A stretch of 64,000 bases of DNA. Source: Giardia intestinalis (Eukaryota). Below, in pieces: positions 17,555 through 62,700 of the stretch (the stretch's first letter is position 1; each line of letters begins with the position of its first letter). A model generated the notes under the pieces. It was not told the DNA's origin. It did not search any database and was given only the letters and a program-made list of their open reading frames with translations. Position numbers and translations under genes: made by a program. The stretch is taken from NCBI GenBank assembly GCA_000002435.2, contig CM018792.1; one strand, 5' to 3'.

Positions 17555-17600
17555 CAAATAATGGGCAGAGCAAGTGCCTAATCATTGTGTTCCGGCATTA

Positions 17601-19130: not shown

Positions 19131-19207
19131 TATTTTGAATGCTCATAGATTTACGGTTTACCTGACTCCAGCTCACGCGGTGGATATCAGAACTAGTTAC
19201 CGATGTG

Positions 19208-19678
19208 CTAATTTTCCGTCCTTATGTCAGCCACATCTGTGACCAGCATTTTCAATCCTAGAAGCGCAGCTGGATATGCAAGAAGAAGGGCCTCTGCGTC
19301 TTCAGGGTGTGCCCCGATAAAGTGCCGAAAGGAAAGAATGATGGCATCCTGTTGGTCTGGGCGCAAAGCTTTCACGGCAGAATAAACAGCTTGTAACTGT
19401 CGCTTCTTCTCCCTTTCGTTATCTGTCTCGACCATTTTGCATTGTAGATTTTCTCCTGACGGAATGTTCACAGCAGAAAACTGCTCTACTGCAAGCTGGG
19501 CCATGTCTGAACTATTGAAGTGGGCATCTACGTAGTATAGCGTCTTGTTCTTGTGGATTGTTGCGCCTCCCAGCTTGGATAATCTGTGTACTATCTCGTC
19601 ATATATTTCGTCTCCGGCGTGTGGCGGAATGCCTATAACGCGTACGTGGGTTGATGTTGATGACTTCGCCCTGGACAT
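19208..19678 (-). CDS. Hypothetical protein, 156 aa, with RRM-like N-terminal half and a helical C-terminal segment loosely resembling the CstF-64 hinge
   Basis: True ATG (aaaaaATG). Weak motif-level resemblance only (..VRVIGIPP.., ..PDQQDAIILSF...HPEDAEALLLAYPAL..). Confidence 0.4.
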   Translation of the reverse strand: MSRAKSSTSTHVRVIGIPPHAGDEIYDEIVHRLSKLGGATIHKNKTLYYVDAHFNSSDMAQLAVEQFSAVNIPSGENLQCKMVETDNEREKKRQLQAVYSAVKALRPDQQDAIILSFRHFIGAHPEDAEALLLAYPAALLGLKMLVTDVADIRTEN

Positions 19679-29988: not shown

Positions 29989-29994
29989 ATTTAA

Positions 29995-30015
29995 CTGTAC
30001 ACTTAGGTAGTAAAC
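29995..30015 (+). promoter_or_regulatory. VSP-type extended polyadenylation signal (CTGTACACTTAGGTAGTAAAC; core AGTAAAC)
   Basis: Located 7-27 nt after the VSP stop; matches the conserved ACTYAGRTAGTRAAY element described downstream of Giardia VSP genes. Confidence 0.6.
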
Positions 30016-43224: not shown

Positions 43225-44202
43225 TCAGTAATTTGCTCTTCCACTGCTCTTTTGCGGCGATCCAGGACGGTTCTGATTGTATCCACTATAGCCTAAGGAG
43301 TTATAGCTATCTTTGTTCATTGCCTTGAGTATCTGGAACGAGCACATAAGTGTGTCATCCACGCTCATCATGGCACCGGCATTATCGTATTCATCGCAAT
43401 AGTTCGGAGCCGAAAAGATAGTAACTAGTCTACGTTTGGCAAAGAATTCATACCCATCTTGGACGACCTGGTGTGCGCGACAGATGAGATCAAAGTCATG
43501 CTTCTTGAGGAACTTCATCACAATATCGTGCCCAAATGTAAACGACACACCTCTGTCATTTTCATGCCATCCAGTTATCCCCGGCTCAGGGTCGGACCAC
43601 AGAAGGTCACAGAGGAGACCCGAGTCAGGGACTTCTGTGGGACGTACTATCTTTTGAATGGCGTTGAGAGACGAAAGCTCCGGGCTCAGGCCCCCATGGG
43701 TGCAGAATATTTTATCATCTATGACAGCCGCGATCGGCAGCGCATCAAAGCAGCGCTTGAATGTCTTCCATAAATTAATAGAGTATCTCGTTTTGCACTC
43801 TTGGTAAAAGCCGTATATCCTGTTGATGGACGAGCACTCGTGGTTCCCACGAAGCATGAAGAAGTTCTCTGGATATTTGATCTTATAGCACAGAAGAAGA
43901 ATAATGCACTCCAAGCTCTGCTTCCCACGATCTACATAATCTCCGAGGAAAATGTAATTTGTGGCAGGGGGAAACCCTCCGTATTCAAAAAGGCGGAGGA
44001 GATCGTAAAATTGGCCATGTATGTCACCGCAGATCTTGATTGGAGCCTCAAGCTCTAGAAGAACGGGGTGAGAAATGAATATCTCAAACGCCTTGTTCAC
44101 CAGCTCTTCAATTTCGTGCTCTGGCAGGTCAACTTGCGAGCCGGGCTTCATTCCCCGCACTGATAACAAACGGTAAAGAATTGAATCCACATTTAGAGGC
44201 AT
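43225..44202 (-). CDS. PP1c: Serine/threonine protein phosphatase PP1 catalytic subunit
   Basis: Near-collinear with PP1 (GDIHGQ, GDYVDRG, LRGNHE, SAPNYC, HGG). Track start 44220 is TTG; first ATG at 44202 gives [13 protein letters not shown].. (cf. LNLDSIIGRLL in PP1). Confidence 0.93.
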
Positions 44203-44424
44203 GCCAAGGCCAAAATCCAAATACAGATTTTTTATTCTGACCTAAATTTTCTTTACTAAAGCTGAAATTCAAATGATAGAAAGGCTGGAGAAATGCTAGA
44301 TAGCGCGAGAATAGCCGCTGTAAAGAAAGCTAATCTGCGCATCATATGCTTATGGTCGCGCCAAAAGGTCCTTTTATCTATTAGCCGTTCTTAAGCCGTA
44401 TTCTCAAGCTGTCAGGTCCTACCC

Positions 44425-46216: not shown

Positions 46217-46723
46217 TTACTCGGGAAGCTGGGGAGCAACGGTTCCTGCACTCACTTCAGCCCAGTTTGTCGACAAGACAGTTCCGCAAGACTCCTGATA
46301 GCTCTTTAGCATAGCGCGCTTTGTGTCATCACTTCCATTCTGATAGATGTTACGGATTACAGCCATCAAGTCGCTGGGAGCGTCGTCTTCACCAGCGACA
46401 TCCATGGTGCGGTACTTCTCTGCCTTATCGTGTTTCTTAGCCGCTGCTTTCTCGGATTTTAGAAGATGCGTAAAAGCAACCTTGCTACTTGCCTGAAGCG
46501 ATATTTCGGCTTTGGAGGGCTTAATATTGACGCAGGGGTCTGAGACACCTCCACAGAGATCCAAAATATGCTTTTTGCCCCTCAATGTGATTGTGAGCTT
46601 GTGGGGATCCAGTTCATCGACAGCAGCACTAATCTCTCCCTCAGTTAGCTCTGGGGTATAGATGTCAATAAATAGTTTGGTGCCTGCAAGGTACCAACCA
46701 TAGCGAAGCTCGCTGTCAGACAT
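46217..46723 (-). CDS. CS + SGS domain protein (Sgt1/CacyBP-like co-chaperone lacking TPR), 168 aa
   Basis: C-terminal SGS signature ..[32 protein letters not shown].. (cf. SGT1 ..[31 protein letters not shown]..), preceded by a p23/CS-like beta-sandwich region. Confidence 0.75.
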   Translation of the reverse strand: [168 protein letters not shown]

Positions 46724-47419: not shown

Positions 47420-47446
47420 TATGGGACATACATATCTACTCTGCAT

Positions 47447-50400
47447 TCAATAGTAGGGCTCAAGCCATATCAGTTGCAACATAAAGTCCCTGATAGTGTT
47501 GGTGTGGACACCTTTAAAATCCACCCGTATGTATCCTTTATCATTGTAATTTAACCCCCACTCATTCCATATTACGAAGTTGTGCATAAGCGGAGCGAAC
47601 GCTAGGTTATTCTGTCTGATGAAGAAGTTGTAGAGAAGCTGAATGTGTTGCTTGGTTGTCAGGTCTGGAGAGGGGAGCCAAGGAGGCATTCCTGTCTTGT
47701 GACAATCTAATGTTATTGGTGCATACGCAGTCATGTTATTCTTAGTAGCCTGAAGATTAGTTTTCTTGTTATACCAGGGAAGAGACTTGTACATTGATTC
47801 TAGGCCATTCCTTAGCACGTCATCAATGGTCATGTTTGCAAGGGTTCTATAAAATAGCACCGAACCTAACTCTAAATACATTGATTTCATGTATAAAAAG
47901 TTGAGAGCGGTGAGAGACAGACGGATCTTGTGTACGGCTAACTCGATTGGATTGTGGCATATTAGATCGCTGACCTTTATTGGAACTCGAGGAGGCCTAT
48001 GATCAGCATTTAAGATATACGTCTTTTGCTCATCTGGGTCCACAATGAGTAGATTGTCAGAAAAGAACGATCGTAAGCGAAGACAAGACTTCCTAAAGCT
48101 ATACAAATCAAGGACTAGAGTCATCACGGGCGTAGCATCGAACTCAGTTGGGTCTGAAGAGAAGCTTTTGGGAAGTGTTGTAATTGTTGTAGCTGTTGAA
48201 GGTGTGGAGTCCCATGGTTGGGGATTGGATAGATTGTACATATATTGTAAGCCAGGGCAGGTTGGGATACTCTGTCTTATTGCAGCTACAGTCCCGCTTT
48301 GTACACCATCTGAAAAAGTCGATAAGGTATTGGTTGAAGTTACGCTTTCCTGCTTTTGCCTAGAATTCATAGTATCCATTACCCTTTGTGCAGGAAAGTC
48401 AAGAGATATTGGTGTTATTGTATTGGCTCCGCTGCTAGTTCCGTAGAATGAAGGTGTAGAAGATTGCGCCGTATCACTGTGGTTCGGATTGGTTTGCACC
48501 GGCCTAGGGTTATCTATGGGCGAGGCTTTATCCTTCCGTTTAGACATAAAGCACAAGGTAGGTGGGCTACTAGATATTCTTAGATGTGCGTTACGCGGCT
48601 TACTTTTTTGTCTACGAGGCACTAACCATGGGATTTGATAATGAAGAGCAATCTTTGAAACAAGAACACTTCCGTTTAAGTAAGAATCGTAGTTTGTTTT
48701 GAGCCTGAGCTTATATCGAATATCCGGTATGACAATTTCAATATCTTCTGGGGGAGGAATACAGCCGGTGTCTATTCTGTTCGATAATAAAGTATCTTTG
48801 CCCGGTATTACCTCAATAAGGAAGTTAGTCGAAAGATCAGCTTCCAACGACATGCTAATCCTTTGATAAACCACTTGCTTGGAATCATAGGCACAGAACC
48901 TATTTGTAACCTTAAGGCTGTCTGTAGAAATTTGATCTATCTCTGTTATCGGTGTAACAAGAGTAGAATCTCTTACTATCGACGAGGTAATTGAGTTATT
49001 TAACTTACTATTGGTGATAGCGAGGCAGTCCAGATTGGGGGTGAGAGGGTACATCCCCAAATTCTTATCCTGAAACATTAAACCACGAGGAGAATCAAAT
49101 GTTTGAGGAGCATCTATCCCCTGCGGTGGTAGGATCCCGAGTGATTGAGGAGCATCTATCCCCTGCGGTGGTAGGATCCCGAGTGATTGAGGAGCGTCTA
49201 TCCCCTGCAGTGGTAGGATCCCGAGTGATTGAGGAGCGTCTATCCCCTGCAGTGGTAGGATCCCGAGTGATTGAGGAGCGTCTATCCCCTGCAGTGGTAG
49301 GATCCCGAGTGATTGAGGAGCATCTATCCCCTGCAGTGGTAGGATCCCGAGTGATTGAGGAGCGTCTATCCCCTGCAGTGGTAGGATCCCGAGTGATTGA
49401 GGAGCATCTATCCCCTGCGGTGGTAGGATCCCGAGTGATTGAGGAGCATCTATCCCCTGCGGTGGTAGGATCCCGAGTGATTGAGGAGCATCTATCCCCT
49501 GCAGTGGTAGGATCCCGAGTGATTGAGGAGCGTCTATCCCCTGCAGTGGTAGGATCCCGAGTGATTGAGGAGCATCTATCCCCTGCGGTGGTAGGATCCC
49601 GAGTGATTGAGGAGCATCTATCCCCTGCGGTGGTAGGATCCCGAGTGATTGAGGAGCGTCTATCCCCTGCGGTGGTAGGATAGGCAATAATTCAGTACCG
49701 TCAGTATTGGAAGTGTAATTAAAAAGATCATCCATATCTATCTTGTATCCGGATGAGTTAGACAAATAATACTCGTACTGCTGCTCTCCATGATTTAAGT
49801 CATTATTCTTGTCATCAGAGTCTTCTATTAAGCCTTTTATAATGTGTGGAATAATAACGCTTGCTTCTGCTTCTATAGAATTTTCCAATGAACTCTCAGC
49901 ATTGCTGTAATCGCTAAAAGGCATACGGGCGGCATATTCAGGTTGAGTTCTATAGAATAGGTTCCGGTCCAACAATGCATACATGGCCGATGTTCGTGCC
50001 TGAGCACGCTTTCGTGCAATCATAAATTGTCCATAGGCCGCACTATCGCATACACTGAATGTTTCTGCACCGGCTTCCTTAAGATTCCAAATGCTGAGCT
50101 CAGGGACAATTATGGAGGAGTAAAAGCGTTCCAAAAGTGCGTATACTGGGAACTGAATTGTAACATCGGAAGAGAGAGAGGTGTACGCTGATTGAGGCAA
50201 GGCAAGTCCTGCTAAGCTGACGACCGAAAGAGGTGCATAAAAGCACTCTGCAATCTTCTTGGTGTAAAGCGCTCTTATTACTAAAATATGATGTAAGCAT
50301 ACACTGTCCTCTGCAAAGAGAACGCCAGTGGACATGCTCTTAATTTCTTTAATTGCTGCTGCAATAAGAGACATCTTAGATAATTGAGTCTCGACAGCAC

Positions 50401-53400
50401 TTGGTTCTACCTTATAAGGTGCAGTTGATAATGCGTTTGTATATCTTTTATTGGTAAATTGTCTTGGGCTAGAGCCCTGCAAATAACCCAGCTTGGGAGA
50501 CGAGAAGATGTCAGACAGGACTGCCCATTCGATCTGGCCTTCTCTACCCTTCTTCACAATGCATGGAGAGGAAGGTGTAATGTTCAACAGCTGCATTTGA
50601 GTCCGGAGGTAGTACCGCCAAAATAAATACGAAACGGTCTTTTGGATCCGAGGTGAATAGAATCGATAATATGCAGCAAAGTCGCAGTCTCTATAGAATA
50701 AGTACTTGGCTATAGCGTTTGCACGGTAATTAGTTGATCGTTTCTGAAGAATTCCAAGCTTTCTATATGTTATTTCCTCAAATAGCTTATTGTCTTCAGA
50801 TATATCTTCCAGGTCAATTGGCACTGACGGAATAGTCTGTAGTTTTATCGCGTTAATTAATCTGTGTATATCCCTATCTTTAATGGGGATAAAGAGAGGT
50901 GGCACGTCTTCCATTCCTTCCTTTCTGAGCATCGTTGAAAACGCTGTATTGTAGTTCATCAGCTTGCGTGCATATTTGGCACGAAGCTTCGCCGCCGTAA
51001 AGCTAAAGTTTTCCTTTGCAAAAATTGTGTACGGTGGTACGTAGGGAACGCCAGATGTCCACCGAACAATCGACGGAATCAGTGGATTAATCCTCAGATC
51101 CATATTCGGATGCGACTCGTGCTTGTAAAGCGCAAATGAACTCGGTGTTTTTAATGTGAATTGAGGAGACAATGATCCCGTAGTTCGATGAAATAAGTTG
51201 GTATGTGAGTTCATGCCTGACTTCATGGCGGAGGCAGATAGCTTGCTGGCTCCTATGATAGTTGCCTTCAGATCAGTATGCAAAATACGTGGTTTGCTAC
51301 TTATGTTTATGTGCTCGGGTGAAATTTGGTTTAGGAGTGGGTCTACGTAGCGCACTATTCCATGATAGTCATAGCCATAATCCAATAATTTCTTGTATTT
51401 AAAAGGGTTATCAAAGGCCTCAATCACTGATGCATTTAGGTTGTCCAGATATCCAGTCAAGATAGTATCCTTTATGCAAACTCTTTTAGAAATGGTGCTG
51501 ACAAATTGGTAACACTCTGTGTCAAGGCAAGAGGCCAGGACAGCCTTTTGGAACGATCTAGAAATAAATGGATTAAATCTGCTTTCCAATTGTGATAGGT
51601 TGCTTTCTGACATGCTCTTCTTAATGAATAGAATATCACTTTCAGCAGATGCATTACAGACACGTGAAAAAGCAAGTTGCTGGGGTATAGCCCCTCTGAT
51701 GATGATAGGAGATGAATCTTTGTCCGTCTCTTCAGCGGCTTCTCTCAGAGACAAGTTGCTAATGGGCTCATAATGCTGCTTCACGGGGCCTTTGAGCAAA
51801 CTGTTGGCCCCAGCTTTGTTACGTATCGAATATCCGTGAGCATAATATGGCAAGTACATGTCAGTTTCGATAGAGTACTCATTAGTAATGCTTGAAGACT
51901 GAAGGTCGTAGGAGTGCTTATCCAAGTCGCTGCTAGCTTCATCCATGATATCAAGTCCTTTAGTATTAGCACAGGATTGCAAAGATATAGTAGATTGGAC
52001 AATGCTGTTAATATAACCAGTACATTTTTTCGTCAATCTACCACGGTACTGTCTATGTTTTGGAAAGACCCTGACAGCCTCAATTGTAGACTGAAAAGAC
52101 ATGGCACTGGATGAAAAGGAAAAGACTGACTGCTCAGTAGATGAGAAAGTCTCAGAAGATGATTCAGAAAACTGCAGGTTTGTTGTAGCAGGGTCAACAA
52201 GGAGCTGAACCGTGCTCAGAAGTGAAAGACCAGTCTTCACGTCTGGTAGCTTGCTAGCAAAGTTTCTTGACGCCAGCTGATTAAAGATGACCTTGAAGAG
52301 AGAAGCATGCTCGAACACTTGAGAAGAAAATCCCGTCAATTGCTTCACAGAAAGCGCTAACGAACTTGACTCCTGATTTCTTTCTGAGAAGATACTTGCT
52401 GAGAGTAGTTTGCTATTGCTTTGAGACTCTACACGCAGCTTCTTAAGGTATGATGGGTAAAGCTGTTGCAGAACAAAGAGAATGCTCAGCTTATGGCTAG
52501 GTGTTATCTTATAGAGATTAAATAAATTAATATTTTCTCTCAGCCTAACCGCCTTCGACTCTAGAGCAGACTTGAGAAATTCAAATGCCTTGTCCCAGTG
52601 TCTTAACTTTCGAGCACTAACAGAGTGGCCGGGAAGCTCGTGTTCGTTTGGTGAGATGTCCTGGTCAGCAAAGTTCTTCTGAGAAGGCCGATTTGACTGA
52701 AAAATAGTGAAGAGAGAAGTAAATGTAAGGTACACCCCATTAGACAGTATCTTCGATAGCCAATTGTGAAGGGCCCCTTTAACAGTAACAGACTTCGAAG
52801 TGGCATATCCGATATCAGAATTATTAAGATATGATGAAGCAGAGATTGAGGTACCGACGGTGGCTATGCTGGTCATGATGCCCGGATTCAAGAGTGGCTG
52901 GCTATCCGTAACCAGAGGAGAATCGCTAAGCACGAGATTTATGTCTGGAGTATTGTGCTTATGGGACTTATGTGCTGATAATTCCAACTGCCTTTTGCTA
53001 AGTGTAGACCCCAGCGAAAGTCGCTTTAAAGAGGAGGCCGAAAAGGTAGATGACTGTCTCAATGGACGCGTCAAGAAGTTGAGGAGACCCGTGACCGAGT
53101 TCCTTCCCAAGATTCCACTGTCATACGTAGCGTCTGCATATGACCAAGTAATATCACCTACATCAGCACGGGCTGTCGTTGAGCCCTCGGACGGAAGCTC
53201 AATTACTTTCTCTTTGGCCTGGCTTTCCTTTTGTGAGAGAAAAGTCGAAGACTTAGTTCTAGATATCGGTGACGATTCGCAGGTATTCTGACATGTCAAT
53301 GAGGTACATGATACTTCTAGTTCTGACTCCGGTGTAATGGCCTCAGCGCAGGGGCGAGTTAGGCACATCTTGTTTGAAGTAGAATGATTACGGTTTGTAC

Positions 53401-56400
53401 GGCACGTAGATAGAGAGGAAACATCTCGCTTAGACATAACCGTGCAGTATATCTTTAGGACAACTGCTCCCACCAGTGTGAAAACAGAGATAACAACGAT
53501 CAGAAAGGTTTCTGCAGATGAAATGTACGTGTGCATTGCCTGTCCAAACAGCTGTAGAAGAAGGCGCATGTGTGCGCCAGGAGGATAGCCGGTCATGTAC
53601 GTGATACTCGGCTTCCAAATAGCCGGGTCTTCCTCGATGTTCAGATGAGAATAAATGCTAGTGCTAAACTTGCTTGTCATGTCTGTGTATGCGTTTGCCC
53701 CAGGAACCCGTGTACACGCCTTCACAGGGTAATATTCCATATTGAACACTGCAATGGACATTAGATCAACCGTAACGAGATTCCGAATAATAGCAATACC
53801 TCGCTTTATGCACGTTGAGGCAAGATCCAGCACAATAAGGCGGTCAGAAATCGACGATTGCTCATATGCAACTGAATCAATCCCAGCTTCAGAACTAAAG
53901 ATCTGAGTCGCCACTCCATCAGTTACCATGATGACATTAAATCTTCTTGTTGTGATAAGCCGCTTCGTGGTCTTGTATTGTATGTTGATCCAGAACTGAT
54001 TATTGTATTCTAATACATTAGTGTAGCGCTCATTCGAGACAGGCACTTTACGAAGGACAAAGTATTCTATGTCAACTAGAGTGTCGAGAATGGACGAAAG
54101 GACCGACTTCATGCCAGAAAGAGTGGCATTTGTAGACCGCGTTAGCACGAAGTCCCCCATATTATTCAGCAAGGCATAGAATACTGGGACGCGGAGGTCA
54201 ACCAAGGTAGGAGCAGATGTACCAGAGGGCAAGATCTTGGAAGGCAAGAGTCCAAAGTTATGTATTGAGTCAAGCGTGCTGATAGATATGTTGTACTCAA
54301 TGGTGTAGACGGCAGCTAGTGCCTTTGTATTGTTGTCTATCCGACTCTGAGAACTAGTATATATGGGAAAGCTGGCAAAGTACAGGAGATATGAATACTC
54401 ATCAGTGGGATCGCCCTGAACATAGTTCTGCAGGGGCTGATACCCATAGTCCCAGTCCTCTGACTCTGCAAGGTTAAGAGGGTTGTACATAAAATTGGGG
54501 TGCAGCTTTCCAGTGAGGCTCGATGTGATTGTATTTAGTTGATAGCCCAGAACCTTCAGTAAGTAGTCATACGTCGAGGGACTGTCGCTGTTGGTAGGGT
54601 CTAGAGGACTCGACTTTGTGATGAACTCCGCAGACTCGTCAAATGGTGGATAGACACGCATAAACATCGGCAATGATAAAGCATTCATGATACTAACAAG
54701 CGGATGCTTGTCAACGTGCATAGCATAGCGTAGAATGTCGCGATTGATCGCCTGAATGTCGACATAGATGTTTTTGAGGTCGTTTTCATATATGCTAGTA
54801 TAGTATACCCTTTGGATGGTCCCGGGTGGCGCTTTTGCAGAAGCATAGATGCTCTGTGCAACGTCTGATCCCTGAGAAAAATCATCGCTGGAGCCAACAT
54901 CATCATAATCATGAAACGATGTTCGGGATGTTCGGCGATGGTGCTCCATGTCGTCCTCATAAAGGCTTCTGTGCTCTAGAGGAGAATCATCAAGATTGAA
55001 GGAATTTGGTGTCATGGCACTCGGCAGTGGCTGCTGGTTGATAAATAAATGAAAGACTCCGTCGAGCCTCCTTGTTCGAAAGGCCTCTGGAAGAATGGCC
55101 AAAATATAGCTAACGAGAAGAGGACTATAGAGCCCAAGATTCTCGATAGGAGTGGGGATGCTAGCAGGGGTAAATCCAATAGAGGCCGGCGCAATCCAGC
55201 TGACAACCTCTGTTGCTGGGTCAAGGAAGTACTTTGGCCTCTCTAAGCAATACAGCTTGGCGGCTTCATAGCCCACTTGAGATGAGAGATTGACATAAGC
55301 CGATGTGTGGTTGGCGTAGAAGCAGGTAGAAAACTCCTGATTCATAATGTTAGCATCCGAGAGAATGTTACCCAGAAGATCTTCAGCTAAATAACAGCCT
55401 TTTCTGAACGGCAGAGGAGAGCTGCTTGGGCTGCTGTAGTCGGGGTAAATCCTAAGGAGGTTCTCCATCTTAAGATGGGAACCCGGATCATTTAGGACAG
55501 CAGTGTAATTAAGTATCATCTCGTTATTGTCCATATTGACTGAACTATCGGGATAGAATGATGCTACAGTAAAATTGTCTAATATTTTCAGAATAGCGTC
55601 ATAAGTAGAAGCTCCAGATAGATAGCTGTTAATAGTCTTCTCCAGAACGTCACGAAACTTAGATATGGTAAGTAGTGCTGTGATATCGGAGGTATCCAAG
55701 ACGGAAGTAAAAAGGTCCTTCAGCTTCACAAACTCCTCAAGAAAGATAGCGTACGCGGGAACAAAGATATTCGATGGGTACCGATACTCTGACTTCAGAT
55801 CTGGAAAGAGTGTCCTGTCCTCAAAGTATGTCTTTAGAGTGACGGGTGTGGGAACGCACTCAGTGCCAAGGGCGGTCTTTGTGGTGACAGATGCCTTCTT
55901 AACGATGTCCTCCAGGTACACCAATGCTATTCTGTTGCCAAACTTAGTTACATTAATGTACTGGTCGAATGCTCTAGATTGGAAGCATATTTTAGTTCCA
56001 TTAAAAGGTATGCAATCTGTTTCTAGAACAGAGTGGGGCGGTGAGAGTAACAGCTTGTTAATGGGGTTAGAGACTTGTGCATAATTAAGTGGTAATCTGG
56101 ATGTGCTGAGAGTGTACATCTTTTTGATTTCCTCTAGAGTACAGGCTTGCCCTTGCGGAACCCTATAGCGTCTATATGCAAATGTAGCCTCACTAATACG
56201 CATATCAAATCCAATGCTATTGTTGGATTCGTCCGGTATCCCTACACGGATATATCCAAAAATTCCTACCTGTCGGCGAATAAACTTATTAACGACGCCT
56301 GCATAGATATACGCAGACTGCGGGATGTATTGAAGCTCATTGTTAACCGTCATGATGGAGCGCAGACCAAGAACTTCTGTGAGAAAAGAATGCTTGTAAA

Positions 56401-59080
56401 GATGATATGAGCCAGTGGAATTACCATCCAGAGGATCGCTGACATAGGTCTCAAGTCCGATGTTCTCAAACATCAAGATCTGAGAGTAGGGGTCTAAGAA
56501 GTACCGTCTCGTATTATTGTCTTGATGGTATATGCGCATGTAGCTTAGAGCGTCGTAATCGAGGCTCAATGGGGAGAAATGGACACTCGACACGTCTAGC
56601 TTGTGAATTAATGAGCCCCTGTATGTAAATAAGGGATTGTTGCCTGCCCTATTTGAGTAGCTAGTTTGCTGGGAATTAGGCCGTAGATGCGCCAGAATAT
56701 TATCTCTATGGCATTTCGCCAGTGTTTTCCCGCTTTGGGAAAGAACTCCATCGTACTTTAGATAGCAAGGATCTGTCTGTGCCACGACAGGCAGATTGTA
56801 GCCCATGTAGCTGTGCTCTTTATAGATAGCCAAAGAGGGAACGTTATCTGCAAACAGCTTCTTACCTTCATAATTAGCAATGTAGGTAAATAGAGGCAAC
56901 AGTTGACGGCGGAGTTCAGCATCGGATAGGTCGGAATAGAGGAAGAGGGTGGCGCCGCTCAAAACAGCAGAGAACCAGTTTGAGGCCTGGAGGACACCCT
57001 TCCGGGTGTTTCTGGCCATTGCCAATGAATCGATATACGAGAGCTCATCACAGGAGATCTTCAGCAAGCGCTTCATGAAGAACGACATGTCATATTCCAG
57101 TGGATAATCCACATCAAAATCAGTAAGTATTGAGCAGGAAGTGACCAGCACGGGGAAAAAGTGAAGCCTGGATGCCTTAAGGGATTTAAAACTGTGCGCC
57201 GAAACTTGCATGATGTCATAGAAATTACTGTCTGAATAAGAAAATACATAGACATTTTGATACTGCATAGATGTGAAAGCACGTGCCTCGTCAGAAATGT
57301 CGCATTCAGAATCGCACGCATAATAGTTGTTATAGACCCCCAAAACAAGCTCTTTAAGCAAGTCAGTCATATGAGTTATCATTTCAGCATGAATTGCTCT
57401 CTGACTGAAAAGATTCTTTGAAGGTCTGGCATACCGCCCAAACGCAGAGTCCCAAGACGAAAACGGATCTTGTGTGTCGTGTAGAAAAGTGTCTAGAATG
57501 AACTTTTTGTACTCCTCCTTGTTGTTTAAGACGGCTGTTTTGCTGTTATAATACGGGTTCTTGGCTACCGAAAACGTACGGTAATTCAAATCCTGATTCG
57601 AATAGTAGCGATAAATCTGGTAGTAGCTGTTAAGTGATCCTCTGTATGGATACTCGGTGTCGTTTGTAGAGTACCCACCGAAGAAAGGAGCACCTGGATA
57701 CTGAGTTCTTAAGCGTGCGTCGCCTTGCAGCCTGGTGAAGGAAGGTATTTCATACTTTTGTGTCCAAGGATTGTAGATATAAATCCAGATCCGGTCCATG
57801 ATGGTGCACATAGATGTAATGATCGCAAGTTGGTGCCTAACAATGTTGTTGACATAGTATTGGAGCTCCCTAGCAGATTGAGTGCGTAGCTTTGAAGGGT
57901 GGACTATGAATACTATATCTCTCTTTATATACCGACTGGTCAGAGCTGTACTACTTGACGCAATGATATCATCTATAGCAAGTTGCTTTACGGAATTTGT
58001 GAGAGGCTGTGAGACATCGAGAGGAACCAGGAGGCCCGACTCTAACTTGAGAGCATGTGCGCTGTTGGAGTCGTGAAAGTATGTCACTCTGCGTCTTCCA
58101 CATAGGTGCTTGTAGCTAAGGGCAATAGCAATCAGATCACGTAATCTATAAGATATAGAGAAGGGCGTGTTATCCATGACTACGATGGAGCTGATGAATG
58201 TCTTGCAATCTGAAATGTCAGCGTCAATCAGCTTAGCTTGCAAGAGGTAGGTGCAGGCCAGTTCTATAAGTACGTCCTTTAAGTCATATGGTACACCATG
58301 GTCCATAGTCAGATCATTATAGATCTTTAGAAACTCAGGTCTATATATGTCCCCGCTAGCAAGTGAATCGATTTTGAGTGAAGAAAAGAGAGGCTTTACA
58401 TGGTCTGTGTAAAGCTTAGCAAGGAGGATGCTGTTGTGTCCAGTACCTTTATCCTCAACCGATTTCAGCATCAAGAAGAGACATTTCTTGTTATCAAACT
58501 CCAGTAGGTCACATAGCTCTGGTAGAGCGGTTGGGTCATCGATGCTTTCTGGCACCACGTTGTATGCGTTGGCTAAAACACTGTCACAAGTAGTGCGGGA
58601 TATCTTATATGCACTGGATATGCTATCGTAGCTCATATTACTGACCGCAGTGAAAACGTCTGAAACTAGGTTAACATACTGTAGGCTTTCAAGCTGATAG
58701 TCCGACTTGTTGGGATCAAGTTTATCGAGGAACTTTCGGAGCGTATCAAGCAAATCACACTGTCCGCTAGATTTAAACTTTGGTGGTATTTGACTGGATG
58801 AAGGGCTTAAAGCATCGATTGCTCTGAAAACTGCAATGGCCTTAGAAAAGGGGGTTGTTTTTGGAAGAAACAGGTACCCCACTTGATGATAGATAGGGAA
58901 AAGGGAAATGGGCGGATCGTAGACAAAATCTTGATTGGTCAAGGACGCAATTGTATCCACGTAGGGAAAAGCATCCCATGCATCGTACAAGAAGTTGTCT
59001 AGCTTTTGGGACCACGCCCAATAGTCTGAGATGTTAATCTGTGCGGCGTACAATAAAATAGCAAGACAGAAAAGCCACAT
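47447..59080 (-). CDS. Giant hypothetical protein (3877 aa): signal peptide, ~1700-aa luminal/extracellular region, one TM helix, ~2100-aa cytoplasmic region containing a 14 x 14-aa tandem repeat
   Basis: 11.6-kb uninterrupted ORF from a true ATG in ctatttataaATG context. N-terminal MWLFCLAILLYAAQINIS. Mid-protein TFLIVVISVFTLVGAVVLKIYCTVMSKRD stop-transfer. GIDAPQSLGILP[P/L]Q x14 near residues ~3130-3330. Confidence 0.7.
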   Translation of the reverse strand: MWLFCLAILLYAAQINISDYWAWSQKLDNFLYDAWDAFPYVDTIASLTNQDFVYDPPISLFPIYHQVGYLFLPKTTPFSKAIAVFRAIDALSPSSSQIPPKFKSSGQCDLLDTLRKFLDKLDPNKSDYQLESLQYVNLVSDVFTAVSNMSYDSISSAYKISRTTCDSVLANAYNVVPESIDDPTALPELCDLLEFDNKKCLFLMLKSVEDKGTGHNSILLAKLYTDHVKPLFSSLKIDSLASGDIYRPEFLKIYNDLTMDHGVPYDLKDVLIELACTYLLQAKLIDADISDCKTFISSIVVMDNTPFSISYRLRDLIAIALSYKHLCGRRRVTYFHDSNSAHALKLESGLLVPLDVSQPLTNSVKQLAIDDIIASSSTALTSRYIKRDIVFIVHPSKLRTQSARELQYYVNNIVRHQLAIITSMCTIMDRIWIYIYNPWTQKYEIPSFTRLQGDARLRTQYPGAPFFGGYSTNDTEYPYRGSLNSYYQIYRYYSNQDLNYRTFSVAKNPYYNSKTAVLNNKEEYKKFILDTFLHDTQDPFSSWDSAFGRYARPSKNLFSQRAIHAEMITHMTDLLKELVLGVYNNYYACDSECDISDEARAFTSMQYQNVYVFSYSDSNFYDIMQVSAHSFKSLKASRLHFFPVLVTSCSILTDFDVDYPLEYDMSFFMKRLLKISCDELSYIDSLAMARNTRKGVLQASNWFSAVLSGATLFLYSDLSDAELRRQLLPLFTYIANYEGKKLFADNVPSLAIYKEHSYMGYNLPVVAQTDPCYLKYDGVLSQSGKTLAKCHRDNILAHLRPNSQQTSYSNRAGNNPLFTYRGSLIHKLDVSSVHFSPLSLDYDALSYMRIYHQDNNTRRYFLDPYSQILMFENIGLETYVSDPLDGNSTGSYHLYKHSFLTEVLGLRSIMTVNNELQYIPQSAYIYAGVVNKFIRRQVGIFGYIRVGIPDESNNSIGFDMRISEATFAYRRYRVPQGQACTLEEIKKMYTLSTSRLPLNYAQVSNPINKLLLSPPHSVLETDCIPFNGTKICFQSRAFDQYINVTKFGNRIALVYLEDIVKKASVTTKTALGTECVPTPVTLKTYFEDRTLFPDLKSEYRYPSNIFVPAYAIFLEEFVKLKDLFTSVLDTSDITALLTISKFRDVLEKTINSYLSGASTYDAILKILDNFTVASFYPDSSVNMDNNEMILNYTAVLNDPGSHLKMENLLRIYPDYSSPSSSPLPFRKGCYLAEDLLGNILSDANIMNQEFSTCFYANHTSAYVNLSSQVGYEAAKLYCLERPKYFLDPATEVVSWIAPASIGFTPASIPTPIENLGLYSPLLVSYILAILPEAFRTRRLDGVFHLFINQQPLPSAMTPNSFNLDDSPLEHRSLYEDDMEHHRRTSRTSFHDYDDVGSSDDFSQGSDVAQSIYASAKAPPGTIQRVYYTSIYENDLKNIYVDIQAINRDILRYAMHVDKHPLVSIMNALSLPMFMRVYPPFDESAEFITKSSPLDPTNSDSPSTYDYLLKVLGYQLNTITSSLTGKLHPNFMYNPLNLAESEDWDYGYQPLQNYVQGDPTDEYSYLLYFASFPIYTSSQSRIDNNTKALAAVYTIEYNISISTLDSIHNFGLLPSKILPSGTSAPTLVDLRVPVFYALLNNMGDFVLTRSTNATLSGMKSVLSSILDTLVDIEYFVLRKVPVSNERYTNVLEYNNQFWINIQYKTTKRLITTRRFNVIMVTDGVATQIFSSEAGIDSVAYEQSSISDRLIVLDLASTCIKRGIAIIRNLVTVDLMSIAVFNMEYYPVKACTRVPGANAYTDMTSKFSTSIYSHLNIEEDPAIWKPSITYMTGYPPGAHMRLLLQLFGQAMHTYISSAETFLIVVISVFTLVGAVVLKIYCTVMSKRDVSSLSTCRTNRNHSTSNKMCLTRPCAEAITPESELEVSCTSLTCQNTCESSPISRTKSSTFLSQKESQAKEKVIELPSEGSTTARADVGDITWSYADATYDSGILGRNSVTGLLNFLTRPLRQSSTFSASSLKRLSLGSTLSKRQLELSAHKSHKHNTPDINLVLSDSPLVTDSQPLLNPGIMTSIATVGTSISASSYLNNSDIGYATSKSVTVKGALHNWLSKILSNGVYLTFTSLFTIFQSNRPSQKNFADQDISPNEHELPGHSVSARKLRHWDKAFEFLKSALESKAVRLRENINLFNLYKITPSHKLSILFVLQQLYPSYLKKLRVESQSNSKLLSASIFSERNQESSSLALSVKQLTGFSSQVFEHASLFKVIFNQLASRNFASKLPDVKTGLSLLSTVQLLVDPATTNLQFSESSSETFSSTEQSVFSFSSSAMSFQSTIEAVRVFPKHRQYRGRLTKKCTGYINSIVQSTISLQSCANTKGLDIMDEASSDLDKHSYDLQSSSITNEYSIETDMYLPYYAHGYSIRNKAGANSLLKGPVKQHYEPISNLSLREAAEETDKDSSPIIIRGAIPQQLAFSRVCNASAESDILFIKKSMSESNLSQLESRFNPFISRSFQKAVLASCLDTECYQFVSTISKRVCIKDTILTGYLDNLNASVIEAFDNPFKYKKLLDYGYDYHGIVRYVDPLLNQISPEHINISSKPRILHTDLKATIIGASKLSASAMKSGMNSHTNLFHRTTGSLSPQFTLKTPSSFALYKHESHPNMDLRINPLIPSIVRWTSGVPYVPPYTIFAKENFSFTAAKLRAKYARKLMNYNTAFSTMLRKEGMEDVPPLFIPIKDRDIHRLINAIKLQTIPSVPIDLEDISEDNKLFEEITYRKLGILQKRSTNYRANAIAKYLFYRDCDFAAYYRFYSPRIQKTVSYLFWRYYLRTQMQLLNITPSSPCIVKKGREGQIEWAVLSDIFSSPKLGYLQGSSPRQFTNKRYTNALSTAPYKVEPSAVETQLSKMSLIAAAIKEIKSMSTGVLFAEDSVCLHHILVIRALYTKKIAECFYAPLSVVSLAGLALPQSAYTSLSSDVTIQFPVYALLERFYSSIIVPELSIWNLKEAGAETFSVCDSAAYGQFMIARKRAQARTSAMYALLDRNLFYRTQPEYAARMPFSDYSNAESSLENSIEAEASVIIPHIIKGLIEDSDDKNNDLNHGEQQYEYYLSNSSGYKIDMDDLFNYTSNTDGTELLPILPPQGIDAPQSLGILPPQGIDAPQSLGILPPQGIDAPQSLGILPLQGIDAPQSLGILPLQGIDAPQSLGILPPQGIDAPQSLGILPPQGIDAPQSLGILPLQGIDAPQSLGILPLQGIDAPQSLGILPLQGIDAPQSLGILPLQGIDAPQSLGILPLQGIDAPQSLGILPPQGIDAPQSLGILPPQGIDAPQTFDSPRGLMFQDKNLGMYPLTPNLDCLAITNSKLNNSITSSIVRDSTLVTPITEIDQISTDSLKVTNRFCAYDSKQVVYQRISMSLEADLSTNFLIEVIPGKDTLLSNRIDTGCIPPPEDIEIVIPDIRYKLRLKTNYDSYLNGSVLVSKIALHYQIPWLVPRRQKSKPRNAHLRISSSPPTLCFMSKRKDKASPIDNPRPVQTNPNHSDTAQSSTPSFYGTSSGANTITPISLDFPAQRVMDTMNSRQKQESVTSTNTLSTFSDGVQSGTVAAIRQSIPTCPGLQYMYNLSNPQPWDSTPSTATTITTLPKSFSSDPTEFDATPVMTLVLDLYSFRKSCLRLRSFFSDNLLIVDPDEQKTYILNADHRPPRVPIKVSDLICHNPIELAVHKIRLSLTALNFLYMKSMYLELGSVLFYRTLANMTIDDVLRNGLESMYKSLPWYNKKTNLQATKNNMTAYAPITLDCHKTGMPPWLPSPDLTTKQHIQLLYNFFIRQNNLAFAPLMHNFVIWNEWGLNYNDKGYIRVDFKGVHTNTIRDFMLQLIWLEPYY
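49096..49683 (-). repeat. 14 tandem copies of a 42-bp unit (14-aa GIDAPQSLGILP[P/L]Q) within the giant gene
   Basis: Perfect period-42 array. Units differ only at two A/G sites, one synonymous (Asp GAT/GAC) and one Pro/Leu (CCG/CTG). All four combinations occur across the array. Confidence 0.9.
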
Positions 59081-59180: not shown

Positions 59181-59669
59181 CTAGGCAGAGCACTTTTTAT
59201 TTTTGCTTATGCCTTTGCGTATGATTGTGATTGTGAGGTATAGTAGACATAGAATGACAGCAGACAGTAGAGAGAGGACTGGAGAGGGAGCAATATGGTG
59301 CATGCCCTGCGCGCCATATCTCAGATGCACAGGAAGATCCAACTGAAACGCAGGCTCACAATCGCCACTAATGGGAGAGTGGTAATGGTACATAGGCTGT
59401 GTGCTTTGCACCAATGGACATTCTGCTGTAACGATGGTGATTAGGCCAATAGAATTGGGGTGACCTGAAGCATTAAGCGCCTGCTCTACTTTCCAGAGGG
59501 GCGACTCTAAGTCATCCACAAAAGTGCCGTCGACCATGCATTCCAATCTATGCCACTGACAAAGGCGTTTAATTTCATATCTATCGACAATCCAAGACAT
59601 GCTGAGGTATGCCACTGCACACTCTCCCGGCCTCCCCTCTAGCCTCACGGTTCTATGAAATGCGCACAT
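59181..59669 (-). CDS. Hypothetical protein with a single C-terminal TM segment (tail-anchored candidate), ~162 aa
   Basis: Track start 59708 is GTG and abuts the upstream gene's stop; the first ATG gives MCAFHRTV... C-terminal PVLSLLSAVILCLLYLTITII, then a basic tail. Confidence 0.3.
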   Translation of the reverse strand: MCAFHRTVRLEGRPGECAVAYLSMSWIVDRYEIKRLCQWHRLECMVDGTFVDDLESPLWKVEQALNASGHPNSIGLITIVTAECPLVQSTQPMYHYHSPISGDCEPAFQLDLPVHLRYGAQGMHHIAPSPVLSLLSAVILCLLYLTITIIRKGISKNKKCSA

Positions 59670-59707
59670 GGGATTTTGTAATATCAGTAGTAGTTCACTT
59701 GTAAACA

Positions 59708-62700
59708 CTACAGCTGATCTGCTCTGATATAAGGCGCCACCTCTCGCGTCAGACGCTCTTTGATGGTCGTAGAGATCGTTGTGGAGGCAACAATCCGATC
59801 TATTACATTGTACCCTTCAAAATCTACTAACTGTGCCTCACTGGGAGCCAGTAAACGTGCTGCCTCAACGGCTCCAGCATCTACAGCATGCGCAAGCGCT
59901 GTGCGCCCCTGCGCGTCTTGTAAGCCACTCTGAACAGGTAGGAATGACCATAAAGCCACAACATCATTCTGCCTCGCTGCTTGCATCAGTTCAGTGACTC
60001 GCCCTCCTGCACAGGATAGCCCCTTTATGCTTAGTCCCTCTGTTGTGCGCAGCAACTCAGCTAACTCCCAATTTTGCATTTTCAATGCCAGGGACAATGC
60101 AGTAGCATTGTCATAGCGGCGCATTGTGGCTTCTGTGGGCACTAGAAGAGGGACAGCCTCAGAGAGTCCATACTGCGCAGCAAGCATCAATCCTGTGGTT
60201 CCATCTGCGCACGATAAACCAGCATACTTCAAATTAGCTTTCACTGCATCTATATCCTTATGCATGATCGCCATCATTAGAGGTGTAAAATCTGATTGGA
60301 CGATATTGTCGGGCCCCCGCAAAGCTGTGTGCGGGCCTCGTGCATCTAAAGGCGATATTTCACGGGATCTTATCTTGGTGATATTGTCCGAAATAGCGTC
60401 AGCTACGCCAGTCACCGTATCTAACGATCGCTGGATATTAGCAGCTCTGTGCATTGCTACCTTAATGTCTGTGTCTTCTTCCGTCAATACAGAATACGGA
60501 GAATGGCCACTTTTGTTGTCTTCTAAACTCTGGCTGAAATGGTCTCTGCTATTAACGAAAGTAAGCTTTTGTCTAAGGCGTTGGTTCTCTTCTTCTAATG
60601 ATAGCAAATACTTAATTATCATGAGGTCTTCCTTTCTTCCTGAGTTAAGGTTCCTCTCTAAAAGCGAGAATATTGGTTTAGTTTGCTCCAGATCTCCATT
60701 AGAGCCAATCCTCTTAAGAACCTTAAGAAGAGCATCTTTCTCTTGTACCTTTTCACGCATATGTGCGAGTTCTGCCAGAGCAGCTGGGGAAAGTTGAGGA
60801 TTTTGCGATGGAGACTTTACAAGTGAGTCTTTTGAACCCATGGATTCTGCACTTAAGAAATCCGTCTGAGATCCCAAAGTATCTCTTTGGAGTGTATTCA
60901 AGGACTGATTCCCTGTGCCAAGTAATGCATCAACTTTCATACGCAGCCTGGTGATTTCAGCCTGGTTATTGGCCTGAGCTTCACTCAGAGAGCCGTTAAC
61001 CTTACGCATTACATCCAGCTCAGCTTGAAGAGCGGCAAATTGTTCTGATCCATCAGGAATAGATGAGGATGGAGAGTGGGTCTTTGTAAATAAATTGTTA
61101 GGTAAACGGAGCCGGTTGCCAAAGTCCGACGTCATTGTGTCGATAGGCGTAAACGGTTTGTATTCTCGACTACTAGGGACGGTTTTTTCTACGTCTTCCA
61201 GGAGACAGGGCGCCGGATCTGCAAACTCGGAGCGAGTGATACTTTTATCTGACTGACCCGTAAGTGCGTGTATACGGTCTTGGTAAAAGGCAATTTCAAG
61301 GGCGTGACTCTGCATAGCAGCAGCTAACTCATTACTCATTCTGTCAATGAGATTACTTTTATCATTAAGAAGGTCATTAAGCTGGGAGTTGGCGTTCATC
61401 AGACACTGGAGCTGTTGCTGCAAGTCGTAGAGAAGAGCGCTGTTAGTGCTGCTGCCCGGTGAACCCAAGGTACTGCCTAGCGTGCCTCCTTTTTCGTACT
61501 CAGCAAGCTTACGCTTAAGTGTCTCGATTATCTCTGCAAGCTCTGCCTTGCTCGATGCAAGAGCGTTATATCCTTTGTGCATGATACTCAGCTCTCGCTC
61601 GAGCTTTTCAGTTCTCTCTGCAAGCTTTGTTGAACTCTCATCAGCTTGTCGTTGCTCGGTGTGCTGCTGTTGCTGCTGGGAGTTGACCTGCTCGCTCATC
61701 GCTGCCAAGGCCTCTTTGGCGAGTGCTGCTGCGTCAACGGCCATCTTCTTTTTGGTATTTGCATCTGTGAGATCCACTTGAAGCTCAGCAATCCGGAGAT
61801 CCTTCTGCTGGAGCTGCTCCCTTAGTTCTTGAAGAGTAGCATTTAGAAGAATAATCTCTGCGCTTTCCTTACCGTGGTCCACATCTCCTTCGTTCTGCAA
61901 GGCAGCCGGAGTTGCACTAATTGCCCTGGGTACGGGTGAGGATATCGTTTGTCGTGATATGTCCTCCTGTGGCATAGAGATGATGGAATCTTGCTCTTTA
62001 GTTGTCACGGAAACAGTAACAGAAACACTAGTGGTGTCAGTCGGACCAGAAGATGATGAGAGAGAACCTTCAATTGAGGCAGTGCTCTTGCTTGACACGG
62101 CGTCAGACGAACTACTGCCTTTAGTATCGGTTGGTTGGTTGCTTAATGAGTTAGAAGATGAGGAAGATACCGACGCTTGGGTCAGGTTGTCTGCCTGAGT
62201 TGTGGGATTTGCCGATGGTGACAATACAGACGAGCTGTGAATTGCAGATCTACTGATGGATGGAGACTTCTCAGAAGAGTTCCCCAAGTCAGAGGACGTG
62301 CTTATGTCAGACGAGTTGGCGGCTGAATTAACAGATGATGATCTCGAAGTCGAAGAGCTATTGTCCACTATTTGATATGAAACGTTTTGTGGCGTCCCTG
62401 GTGTGCTTATTCTGCTAACAGATGTGTAGGAAACATCTGGAATCAAATACTCAGAAATGATACCGATCACTTCTGTGTCTGTTGTGGCAGTCAGCGCGTC
62501 TCTAACATGAGACTGTGGCATTTTGCCAGATTCTAATAAAATGCGGATTGTCGTGATATGCAGGTTTGAGGCAGCATAAAACAGTGCTCCGCGCGAGTAT
62601 TTGTCTGTGCGGACGGGGACGTGATTAACTAGAAAGGAGACCATGTCAGAGCACCCCGCCTCAGAGCCAAGCATTAGAGCATCACGGCCCTCTGGCGTAA

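What the first reader, a model, noticed from the sequence alone, without database searches (positions are those of the whole stretch)
47447..59080. 3877-aa predicted type-I membrane giant with a repeat-bearing cytoplasmic half
This is an 11.6-kb single ORF, the largest in the window. It has an N-terminal signal peptide, a single stop-transfer helix near the middle and no domain I recognise on either side. Giant single-pass membrane proteins of this size are rare. It may be a lineage-specific adhesin or a cytoskeleton-membrane linker.
Basis: partly seen in the sequence, partly recalled or inferred. Interest (0 to 1): 0.6.

Follow-up and report, generated by a model that had tools for sequence, protein, structure and literature searches.

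The report
Giant orphan Giardia type-I membrane protein
The 11.6-kb ORF is a real, conserved Giardia gene (GL50803_112875) for a giant single-pass membrane protein with no recognisable domain and no known function; it is an interesting orphan but not a new kind of system.

Summary
Window 47447-59080 on the minus strand is one uninterrupted 3877-codon ORF, the largest in the window. It is Giardia intestinalis WB GL50803_112875 (XP_001709714.1, UniProt A8B4W6), annotated as a hypothetical protein. Full-length syntenic orthologues occur in assemblages A2, E and B. A 4125-aa relative with the same layout comes from an unnamed organism.

dN/dS is 0.06-0.26 along the whole length, and there is no sense-strand poly(A) signal inside, so it is not a chimera.

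All four sequences examined (assemblages A, E and B, plus the distant relative) share:
- a short N-terminal hydrophobic leader;
- exactly one membrane-competent helix (aa 1858-1882);
- basic residues on the C-terminal side of that helix.

The N-terminal half is non-repetitive and is the better conserved half. 15 of its 24 cysteines are kept at about 22-27% identity. The C-terminal half has conserved islands between fast-evolving linkers, and a 42-bp coding minisatellite with 3-14 copies depending on the strain.

Pfam, PDB sequence and profile searches, two very large protein searches and a metagenome scan found no family. Both AlphaFold jobs failed (pLDDT 28-30). One published table lists the gene as up-regulated 14 h into encystation.

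The type-I topology is well supported. The adhesin or cytoskeleton-linker function remains conjecture.

The parts
47447..59080 (-). Complete ORF, 3877 codons plus TGA stop; Giardia intestinalis WB gene GL50803_112875
   Evidence: exact match to XP_001709714.1 / A8B4W6; 0 internal stops against 194-300 in the other frames
59039..59080 (-). aa 1-14, N-terminal hydrophobic leader MWLFCLAILLYAAQ (putative cleaved signal peptide)
   Evidence: A hydrophobic N-terminus is present in all orthologues, including P0014 (MHGALLVLWVSYCSF). Cleavage is inferred, not tested.
55061..59038 (-). aa 15-1340, ectodomain part 1: non-repetitive, mixed alpha/beta, Tyr-rich (whole N-terminal half 6.7% Tyr)
   Evidence: 64-81% identity between assemblages A and B; dN/dS 0.094; collinear homology to P0014 aa 32-880 and from aa 948 onward; 13 of the 15 conserved ectodomain Cys lie here
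54821..55060 (-). aa 1341-1420, acidic variable linker inside the ectodomain
   Evidence: lowest ectodomain conservation (55% A vs B); dN/dS 0.18
53516..54820 (-). aa 1421-1855, membrane-proximal ectodomain part 2, the most conserved region of the protein
   Evidence: 83-88% identity A vs B; dN/dS 0.063. This region gave the hit to P0014 (E 2e-17).
53435..53509 (-). aa 1858-1882, single transmembrane (stop-transfer) helix TFLIVVISVFTLVGAVVLKIYCTVM
   Evidence: Kyte-Doolittle 2.72. It is the only 19-mer with a negative summed Hessa-scale insertion energy in each of 4 orthologues (-1.0 to -2.8; next best +2.8 to +4.6, where the +2.8 is the GS-B N-terminal leader). Flanking K+R counts are 0 on the N side and 3-5 on the C side.
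47450..53434 (-). aa 1883-3877, predicted cytoplasmic half: conserved islands separated by fast-evolving Ser/Pro/Gln-rich linkers
   Evidence: 41-89% identity per 100 aa; dN/dS 0.16-0.26; composition and disorder-prone stretches
49931..50383 (-). aa 2900-3050, best-conserved cytoplasmic island and the only one still detectable in the distant relative
   Evidence: 89% A vs B and 97% A vs E; BLASTP 2917-3038 against P0014 3108-3225, E 0.002
49103..49681 (-). 42-bp coding minisatellite, 13.8 copies = 14 x LP(P/L)QGIDAPQSLGI (aa 3135-3326)
   Evidence: Copy number is 14 (WB), 8 (DH A2), 6 (another assemblage-A assembly), 3 (P15) and at least 6 (GS-B). It is absent from P0014.
47450..48163 (-). aa 3640-3877, conserved C-terminal domain
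   Evidence: 86% A vs B over aa 3701-3800; dN/dS 0.16
47434..47440 (-). AGTAGAT, one mismatch from the Giardia poly(A) signal consensus AGTRAAY, 7 nt after the stop (putative)
   Evidence: read. No exact AGTRAAY lies on the sense strand anywhere inside the ORF. The assignment is inference.

Best explanation
This is one real gene, shown to be transcribed. It encodes a giant type-I (N-out, C-in) single-pass membrane protein found so far only in the Giardia lineage.

Shown here:
- one uninterrupted ORF under purifying selection along its whole length;
- the same layout in G. intestinalis assemblages A, A2, E and B and in a relative of about 22% identity: a short hydrophobic leader, a non-repetitive N-terminal half of 1600-1850 aa, one hydrophobic helix followed by basic residues, then a tail of 2000-2500 aa;
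- the N-terminal half is the conserved part and keeps most of its cysteines;
- the tail keeps only islands and carries a strain-variable 14-residue minisatellite.

Inferred:
- The leader is cleaved and the N-terminal half folds in the ER lumen as a disulfide-bonded ectodomain. It ends up either on the cell surface or in a lumenal compartment.
- The conserved ectodomain binds a conserved, parasite-intrinsic partner rather than a variable host ligand.
- The tail is a long, largely flexible scaffold. Its conserved islands (aa ~2160-2340, 2490-2600, 2650-2830, 2900-3050, 3640-3877) dock cytoplasmic or cytoskeletal partners, and the minisatellite is a spacer.
- The transcript rises about 14 h into encystation. 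The most likely setting is therefore membrane, cytoskeleton or cyst-wall remodelling during differentiation, not trophozoite attachment.

My confidence in the gene and topology part is about 0.8. My confidence in the transmembrane-linker-in-encystation part is about 0.25.
For: - Gene reality: ORF, about 1e-90 by chance; identical to GL50803_112875; orthologues of 3723-3800 aa, 99/84/69% identity; conserved synteny in P15; dN/dS 0.134 overall, 0.06-0.26 per segment; no sense-strand AGTRAAY inside, about 3 expected.
- Topology: (one helix only, positive-inside, N-terminal leader, in all four sequences examined).
- Extracytoplasmic N-half: (15/24 ectodomain Cys conserved to P0014 at 27% aligned identity, against 8/26 in the tail).
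- Ancient linkage of both halves: (P0014 matches the ectodomain collinearly, and the aa 2917-3038 island on the same polypeptide).
- Non-repetitive ectodomain.
- Minisatellite variability.
- Expression: PMC8700996 Table S3, sheet '14 hours (no motif in WB)', one of the 200 genes up at 14 h.
Against: - No experimental topology, localisation or protein-level detection was found. The gene number was absent from the supplement text held for four other omics papers; some stored files are truncated.
- Both AlphaFold2 jobs gave unusable models (mean pLDDT 30.3 and 27.7). No fold supports any function, and the helix could not be shown to be free of a globular domain.
- Signal-peptide cleavage was not predicted with a dedicated tool.
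- The encystation datum is a single list entry without a fold-change, because the main table was truncated in storage.
- The same table lists two G. muris orthologues, which I could not retrieve. If the gene is split there, the two halves could function separately.
Confidence: 0.55

Rival explanations
1. Endomembrane resident. The N-terminal half stays in the ER, nuclear-envelope, peripheral-vacuole or encystation-vesicle lumen. There it acts as a lumenal receptor or structural protein, while the tail reaches into the cytoplasm.
For: - The same topology evidence applies as for the best explanation.
- Very low dN/dS in the N-half (0.06-0.09) and conservation in a distant relative fit an internal partner better than a host-exposed surface.
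- Up-regulation occurs when encystation vesicles mature.
Against: - No retention or retrieval motif is evident at the C-terminus (it ends ...LEPYY).
- It was not found in the held supplements of the secretory/endocytic organelle proteome paper.
- Nothing distinguishes a lumenal from a surface location in silico.
Confidence: 0.2
2. One reading: a lineage-specific surface adhesin for host attachment, or a ventral-disc/membrane linker of trophozoites.
For: Type-I layout with an ectodomain of about 1840 aa and a long tail. The strain-variable repeat recalls surface proteins.
Against: - The ectodomain lacks any tandem module architecture and any adhesin-type Pfam domain.
- The ectodomain is the most constrained part.
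- The variable repeat lies on the predicted cytoplasmic side.
- The transcript goes up during encystation, when attachment is being lost.
- The gene number appears in the main text of no paper in the library, including disc-proteome papers.
Confidence: 0.12
3. Not strictly single-pass. The moderately hydrophobic, highly conserved segment at aa 2943-2961 (with aa 2917-2935) is a second membrane-embedded element, either a hairpin or a second helix. That would put the repeats and the C-terminus outside, or pin the tail back onto the membrane.
For: It is the second-best hydrophobic segment of the mature protein (KD 1.69). It lies in the only tail island conserved to P0014.
Against: Its summed Hessa-scale insertion energy is +4.6 to +5.1 (+6.1 in P0014), against -1.0 to -2.8 for the real helix. 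It contains Glu, Pro, Ser and Gly, so it fits the core of a soluble helical domain.
Confidence: 0.07
4. Annotation artefact: a chimera of two or more adjacent genes that happens to be in frame, or a long non-functional ORF.
For: Unusual size; no detectable domains. GiardiaDB orthology lists two G. muris genes for it.
Against: - Chance probability is about 1e-90.
- The frame is kept intact in four isolates and in a relative of about 22% identity, with both halves on one polypeptide.
- dN/dS is below 0.27 everywhere.
- There is no internal poly(A) signal.
- Giardia intergenic regions normally contain stops.
Confidence: 0.03

Closest known systems
Giardia VSP / high-cysteine membrane proteins (HCMP); one is encoded in this same window at 26668-29988
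   Same: Giardia type-I membrane proteins: an N-terminal leader, a large ectodomain and one C-terminal-side transmembrane helix. Some HCMPs are also induced in encystation (PMC8700996).
   Different: VSPs and HCMPs are rich in CXXC/EGF-like cysteine motifs and hit Pfam VSP/cEGF. From my own knowledge, they have cytoplasmic tails of only a few residues. This protein has 1.3% Cys in the ectodomain (24 of 1855), no Pfam hit and a tail of about 1990 aa.
Nuclear-pore membrane glycoprotein gp210/NUP210 (resemblance recalled from memory)
   Same: A type-I protein with a lumenal domain of about 1800 aa followed by a single helix.
   Different: gp210 is built of Ig-like (Big_2-type) repeats and has a tail of about 60 aa. 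Here there are no internal repeats, no Pfam hit of any kind and a tail of about 1990 aa. There is no evidence of homology.
Giant modular adhesion receptors (for example FAT/protocadherins and other cadherin-, Ig- or FN3-repeat proteins)
   Same: Very large single-pass type-I proteins that couple an ectodomain to cytoplasmic or cytoskeletal partners.
   Different: Those ectodomains are arrays of one repeated module. This one shows no self-similarity by BLASTP or hhalign, and no such domain by Pfam.
P0014, a 4125-aa protein from Logan assembly SRR31929897 (unnamed organism)
   Same: A true homologue. It has a collinear ectodomain (E 2e-37 and 3e-20 by BLASTP; 2e-17 in the library scan), the same leader, helix and giant-tail layout, and shares the aa 2917-3038 island.
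   Different: Identity is only about 22%. There is no 14-residue minisatellite and no shared neighbouring genes. Its tail is otherwise unalignable. All six neighbouring proteins are singletons at 90% identity, so the organism is not a sequenced Giardia.

Membership tests
Type-I single-pass membrane protein (topology class) | N-terminal cleavable signal peptide | tested here: inconclusive
   A 12-residue hydrophobic core sits at the extreme N-terminus in all orthologues, and no alternative start exists. No dedicated signal-peptide predictor was available, and cleavage was not tested.
Type-I single-pass membrane protein (topology class) | Exactly one membrane-spanning helix after the leader | tested here: met
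   KD 2.72 against a next best of 1.74. It is the only segment with a negative summed insertion energy in each of 4 orthologues.
Type-I single-pass membrane protein (topology class) | Positive-inside charge bias placing the C-terminal side in the cytosol | tested here: met
   K+R counts are 0 on the N-flank and 3-5 on the C-flank in the three assemblages. P0014 has RRH directly after the helix.
Type-I single-pass membrane protein (topology class) | Experimentally determined orientation and membrane integration | not testable with these tools
   Needs tagging, protease protection or carbonate extraction.
Giardia VSP / HCMP | Cys-rich ectodomain (CXXC motifs) matching Pfam VSP (PF03302) or EGF-type models | tested here: not met
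   No Pfam hit at E<=1, or at E<=10 on the halves. Ectodomain Cys is 24 of 1855.
Giardia VSP / HCMP | Very short conserved cytoplasmic tail | tested here: not met
   The tail is about 1990 aa.
gp210/NUP210-like pore membrane protein | Lumenal domain made of Ig-like repeats, and a short cytoplasmic tail | tested here: not met
   No Pfam hit, no internal repeats, and a tail of about 1990 aa.
Modular repeat adhesins (cadherin, Ig, FN3, EGF, LRR) | Tandem copies of a recognisable extracellular module | tested here: not met
   Self-BLASTP finds only the cytoplasmic minisatellite. hhalign of aa 1-1200 against aa 1421-2620 gives probability 0.2%. Pfam finds nothing.
VWA / alpha2delta-like (my own lead from the DIVFIVHPS beta-alpha-beta stretch at aa 388-437) | VWA fold with a DxSxS MIDAS motif, detectable by the Pfam VWA models | tested here: not met
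   The sequence reads DIVFIVHPSKL, with no DxSxS. There is no VWA hit in Pfam or PDB profiles. The AF2 model is only locally at pLDDT 50-65 and is otherwise unusable.

The most novel reading that the evidence does not exclude
The conserved, non-repetitive, Tyr-rich ectodomain is a new fold family that carries out an encystation-specific job for which no gene is known. Examples would be anchoring or templating the GalNAc-polymer cyst wall at the plasma membrane, or even part of the unidentified cyst-wall synthase. In this reading the giant tail couples that job to the disassembling cytoskeleton.
Probability: 0.05. Interest if true: 0.75.

Novelty: new variant of a known kind. Interest (0 to 1): 0.35.

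Why it matters
If the topology and the encystation timing hold, this would be one of the few non-variant, non-cysteine-rich transmembrane proteins of Giardia that physically spans the membrane with large conserved masses on both sides. That makes it a candidate handle on how the parasite couples its surface or lumenal compartments to the cytoskeleton during differentiation into the infectious cyst. It is also conserved across human-infective assemblages A and B (ectodomain 64-88% identical), unlike VSPs. As it stands, it is an annotated hypothetical protein, and nothing unexpected was shown about it beyond its size and its complete lack of detectable relatives outside the lineage.

Tried and rejected
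1. Pfam on the whole protein, on both halves and on P0014 found nothing. PDB searches (sequence, then profiles of the full length, aa 1-1200 and aa 1421-2620) gave only chance-level hits with E>=0.15.
2. Word-indexed searches of 5.8 billion proteins with the protein, with a 4-sequence alignment and with the P0014 ectodomain returned only G. intestinalis orthologues or nothing. One call errored.
3. An exhaustive HMMER scan of 1.84 billion representatives with the aa 700-1899 profile gave one new relative, P0014, and nothing else.
4. A metagenome DNA scan gave 79 pattern matches, none of them real.
5. AlphaFold2 on aa 1-1200 and aa 1421-2620 with 4-sequence alignments gave mean pLDDT 30.3 and 27.7. 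I therefore did not run fold search, whose output would be meaningless on such models.
6. I looked for internal domain duplication by self-BLASTP and hhalign and found none.
7. The VWA/Cache (alpha2delta-like) idea, taken from local sequence patterns, has no support (see the membership test).
8. A second transmembrane segment at aa 2943-2961 was rejected on insertion energy.
9. Literature: the gene number, UniProt accession and orthologue tags occur in no main text. Supplements of five other papers gave nothing, and one paper had no supplements held.
10. I tried to name the organism behind P0014.

Full report
**What is there.** The window is Giardia intestinalis WB DNA. Coordinates 47447-59080 on the minus strand hold one ORF of 3877 codons starting with ATG. 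A TAA codon lies directly before the ATG, so the hydrophobic N-terminus is the true start of the reading frame. The other five frames of the same DNA contain 194-300 stops each. From base composition, 3877 stop-free codons have a probability of about 1e-90. The product is identical to GL50803_112875 (new tag GL50803_00112875, XP_001709714.1, UniProt A8B4W6), annotated as a hypothetical protein. It is the largest ORF in the window; the next largest is 1999 aa.

**One gene, not a chimera.**
- Full-length orthologues exist in assemblage A2 (DH, 3793 aa, 99% identity), E (P15, 3723 aa, 84%) and B (GS-B, 3800 aa, 69%).
- In P15 the neighbours are the same: ankyrin protein, PIG-X-like, the giant, a 213-aa convergent ORF, SGS, a 588-aa ORF and PP1 (compared).
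- Nei-Gojobori dN/dS between WB and P15 is 0.134 overall and below 0.27 in every segment. The segment values are 0.094 (ectodomain part 1), 0.063 (membrane-proximal ectodomain), 0.11 (helix) and 0.16-0.26 (tail).
- No exact Giardia poly(A) signal (AGTRAAY) lies on the sense strand inside the ORF, where about three are expected. A one-mismatch copy, AGTAGAT, lies 7 nt after the stop.
- An exhaustive HMMER scan of 1.84 billion representative proteins with the aa 700-1899 profile found one further relative, P0014 (4125 aa, E 2e-17). P0014 comes from a 99.6-kb contig of SRA run SRR31929897.
- P0014 matches the ectodomain collinearly (aa 29-980, E 2e-37; aa 1103-1789, E 3e-20; about 22% identity). 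It also matches the tail island aa 2917-3038 (E 0.002) on the same polypeptide. The two halves have therefore been linked for a long time.
- P0014's neighbours are unrelated to those in the window. All six tested neighbour proteins are singletons at 90% identity. The locus G+C is 48.7%, against 54.7% reported for G. muris (PMC7641422 Table 1). The source is therefore an unsequenced relative.

**Topology.**
- Only one segment is strongly hydrophobic: aa 1859-1877, Kyte-Doolittle 2.72, with the next best at 1.74.
- With the Hessa biological scale, this is the only 19-mer with a negative summed insertion energy in WB, P15, GS-B and P0014 (-1.0 to -2.8). The runners-up are +2.8 to +4.6, and the +2.8 is the GS-B N-terminal leader.
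- The 15 residues before the helix carry no Lys or Arg, and the 15 after carry 3-5. P0014 has RRH directly after its helix.
- All four sequences examined begin with a short hydrophobic stretch.
- 15 of the 24 cysteines in the N-terminal half are conserved in P0014, although aligned identity there is only 27%. In the tail the figure is 8 of 26. This is what disulfide-bonded extracytoplasmic domains look like.
- Together these features support signal peptide, ectodomain (about 1840 aa), helix (aa 1858-1882), then cytoplasmic tail (about 1990 aa). This is inference from sequence rules; no signal-peptide program or experiment was available.
- The moderately hydrophobic conserved stretch at aa 2943-2961 scores +4.6 to +6.1, so I do not regard it as a second span.

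**Anatomy of the halves.**
- The ectodomain has no internal repeats by self-BLASTP or by profile-profile comparison of its parts.
- The ectodomain is 64-88% identical between assemblages A and B and best conserved at aa 1500-1800. An acidic variable linker at aa 1341-1420 splits it in two.
- The tail alternates conserved islands with poorly conserved Ser/Pro/Gln-rich stretches of 41-56% identity. The islands lie at about aa 2160-2340, 2490-2600, 2650-2830, 2900-3050 (89%) and 3640-3877 (86%).
- At 49103-49681 lies a 42-bp tandem array of 13.8 copies at 97% identity. It encodes 14 copies of LP(P/L)QGIDAPQSLGI.
- The copy number is 14 in WB, 8 in DH, 6 in another assemblage-A assembly, 3 in P15 and at least 6 in GS-B. 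The array is absent from P0014. It behaves as a coding minisatellite, most simply a spacer.
- The 194-aa antisense ORF at 49099-49683 is a by-product of this array.

**Search for a family.**
- Pfam gave no hit at E<=1 for the protein, or at E<=10 for its halves and for P0014.
- PDB sequence and profile searches gave only chance-level hits with E>=0.15.
- Three word-indexed searches of 5.8 billion proteins returned only G. intestinalis orthologues. A metagenome scan found nothing.
- AlphaFold2 with the shallow alignments that exist gave mean pLDDT 30.3 (aa 1-1200) and 27.7 (aa 1421-2620). These are unusable, so no fold search was run.
- The protein therefore belongs to no described family. It fails the defining features of Giardia VSP/HCMPs, of gp210-type pore proteins, of modular adhesins and of VWA-type domains (see the membership table).

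**Function.**
- The only functional datum I found is in Rojas-Lopez et al. 2021 (PMC8700996). Supplementary Table S3 lists GL50803_112875 under '14 hours (no motif in WB)'. This places it among the genes up-regulated at 14 h after induction of encystation that lack a Myb2 CWACAG site within 200 bp upstream. 200 genes are up at that time point.
- The same row gives the GiardiaDB orthologues GLP15_3789 and GSB_152288, and two G. muris genes, GMRT_11812 and GMRT_22707.
- The gene number and accessions occur in no main text of the library. They also do not occur in the held supplements of five other Giardia omics or genome papers.
- My best reading is a transmembrane linker. Its constrained ectodomain binds a parasite-intrinsic partner, and its long tail scaffolds cytoplasmic partners, with a role in remodelling during encystation. 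The architecture part is well supported (about 0.8). The functional part is conjecture (about 0.25).
- A host-attachment adhesin is less likely for four reasons. The ectodomain is non-modular. It is the slowest-evolving region. The variable repeat is on the cytoplasmic side. Expression rises when attachment is being lost.

**Unresolved.** The G. muris orthologues named in the literature table did not appear in my exhaustive scan. They may sit in P0014's 50% cluster, be absent from the library, or match outside aa 700-1899, for example if the gene is split there. I could not check this.

**Verdict.** The functional guess is untested. This is an already annotated, lineage-restricted orphan gene whose layout is a familiar one (type-I single-pass) built from unrecognisable parts. 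Interest is modest at 0.35.

Noticed in passing
window 11555-17554 (+): A second large orphan: a 1999-aa ORF with no Pfam hit at E<=0.001. It was not examined further.
   Followed up: no
window 24000-30000: G+C jumps to 0.60-0.63, with AT skew up to +0.34. The stretch holds a 1106-aa Cys-rich EGF/VSP-like ORF (26668-29988 +) and a 637-aa ORF with a partial papain-family domain (24092-26005 -). Two ORFs of about 1000 aa on the opposite strand (26814-29981, 26917-29796) look like composition artefacts.
   Followed up: partly
window 59181-59708 (-): A 175-aa ORF with a weak PIG-X/PBN1 match (E 4.5e-6) lies 100 nt upstream of the giant gene. It abuts the stop of the ankyrin-repeat gene at 59708-63013. 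The same arrangement occurs in P15.
   Followed up: partly
window 49099-49683 (+): A 194-aa antisense ORF coincides exactly with the 42-bp minisatellite. It is an artefact of the repeat lacking stops in that frame.
   Followed up: yes
L002 (Logan SRR31929897 contig, 99.6 kb), gene at 8001-20378: The only distant homologue comes from an unnamed organism. The locus G+C is 48.7%. All six neighbouring proteins, including an Arf-like GTPase, are singletons at 90% identity. No synteny with the window. It is probably an unsequenced Giardia-related diplomonad.
   Followed up: partly
PMC8700996 Table S3 compared: GiardiaDB orthology lists two G. muris genes (GMRT_11812, GMRT_22707) for this protein, but the exhaustive profile scan returned no G. 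muris protein. Separately, the word-indexed searches did not return P0014, even though it is in the collection.
   Followed up: no
window 6813-10646 (+), 269-1414 (-), 3125-4171 (-), 37405-39030 (+), 43225-44220 (-), 46217-46723 (-): Ordinary housekeeping neighbours: alpha-COP, an actin-related protein, eIF5, cathepsin C, a PP1-type phosphatase and an SGS-domain protein. None suggests an operon-like functional link to the giant gene.
   Followed up: yes
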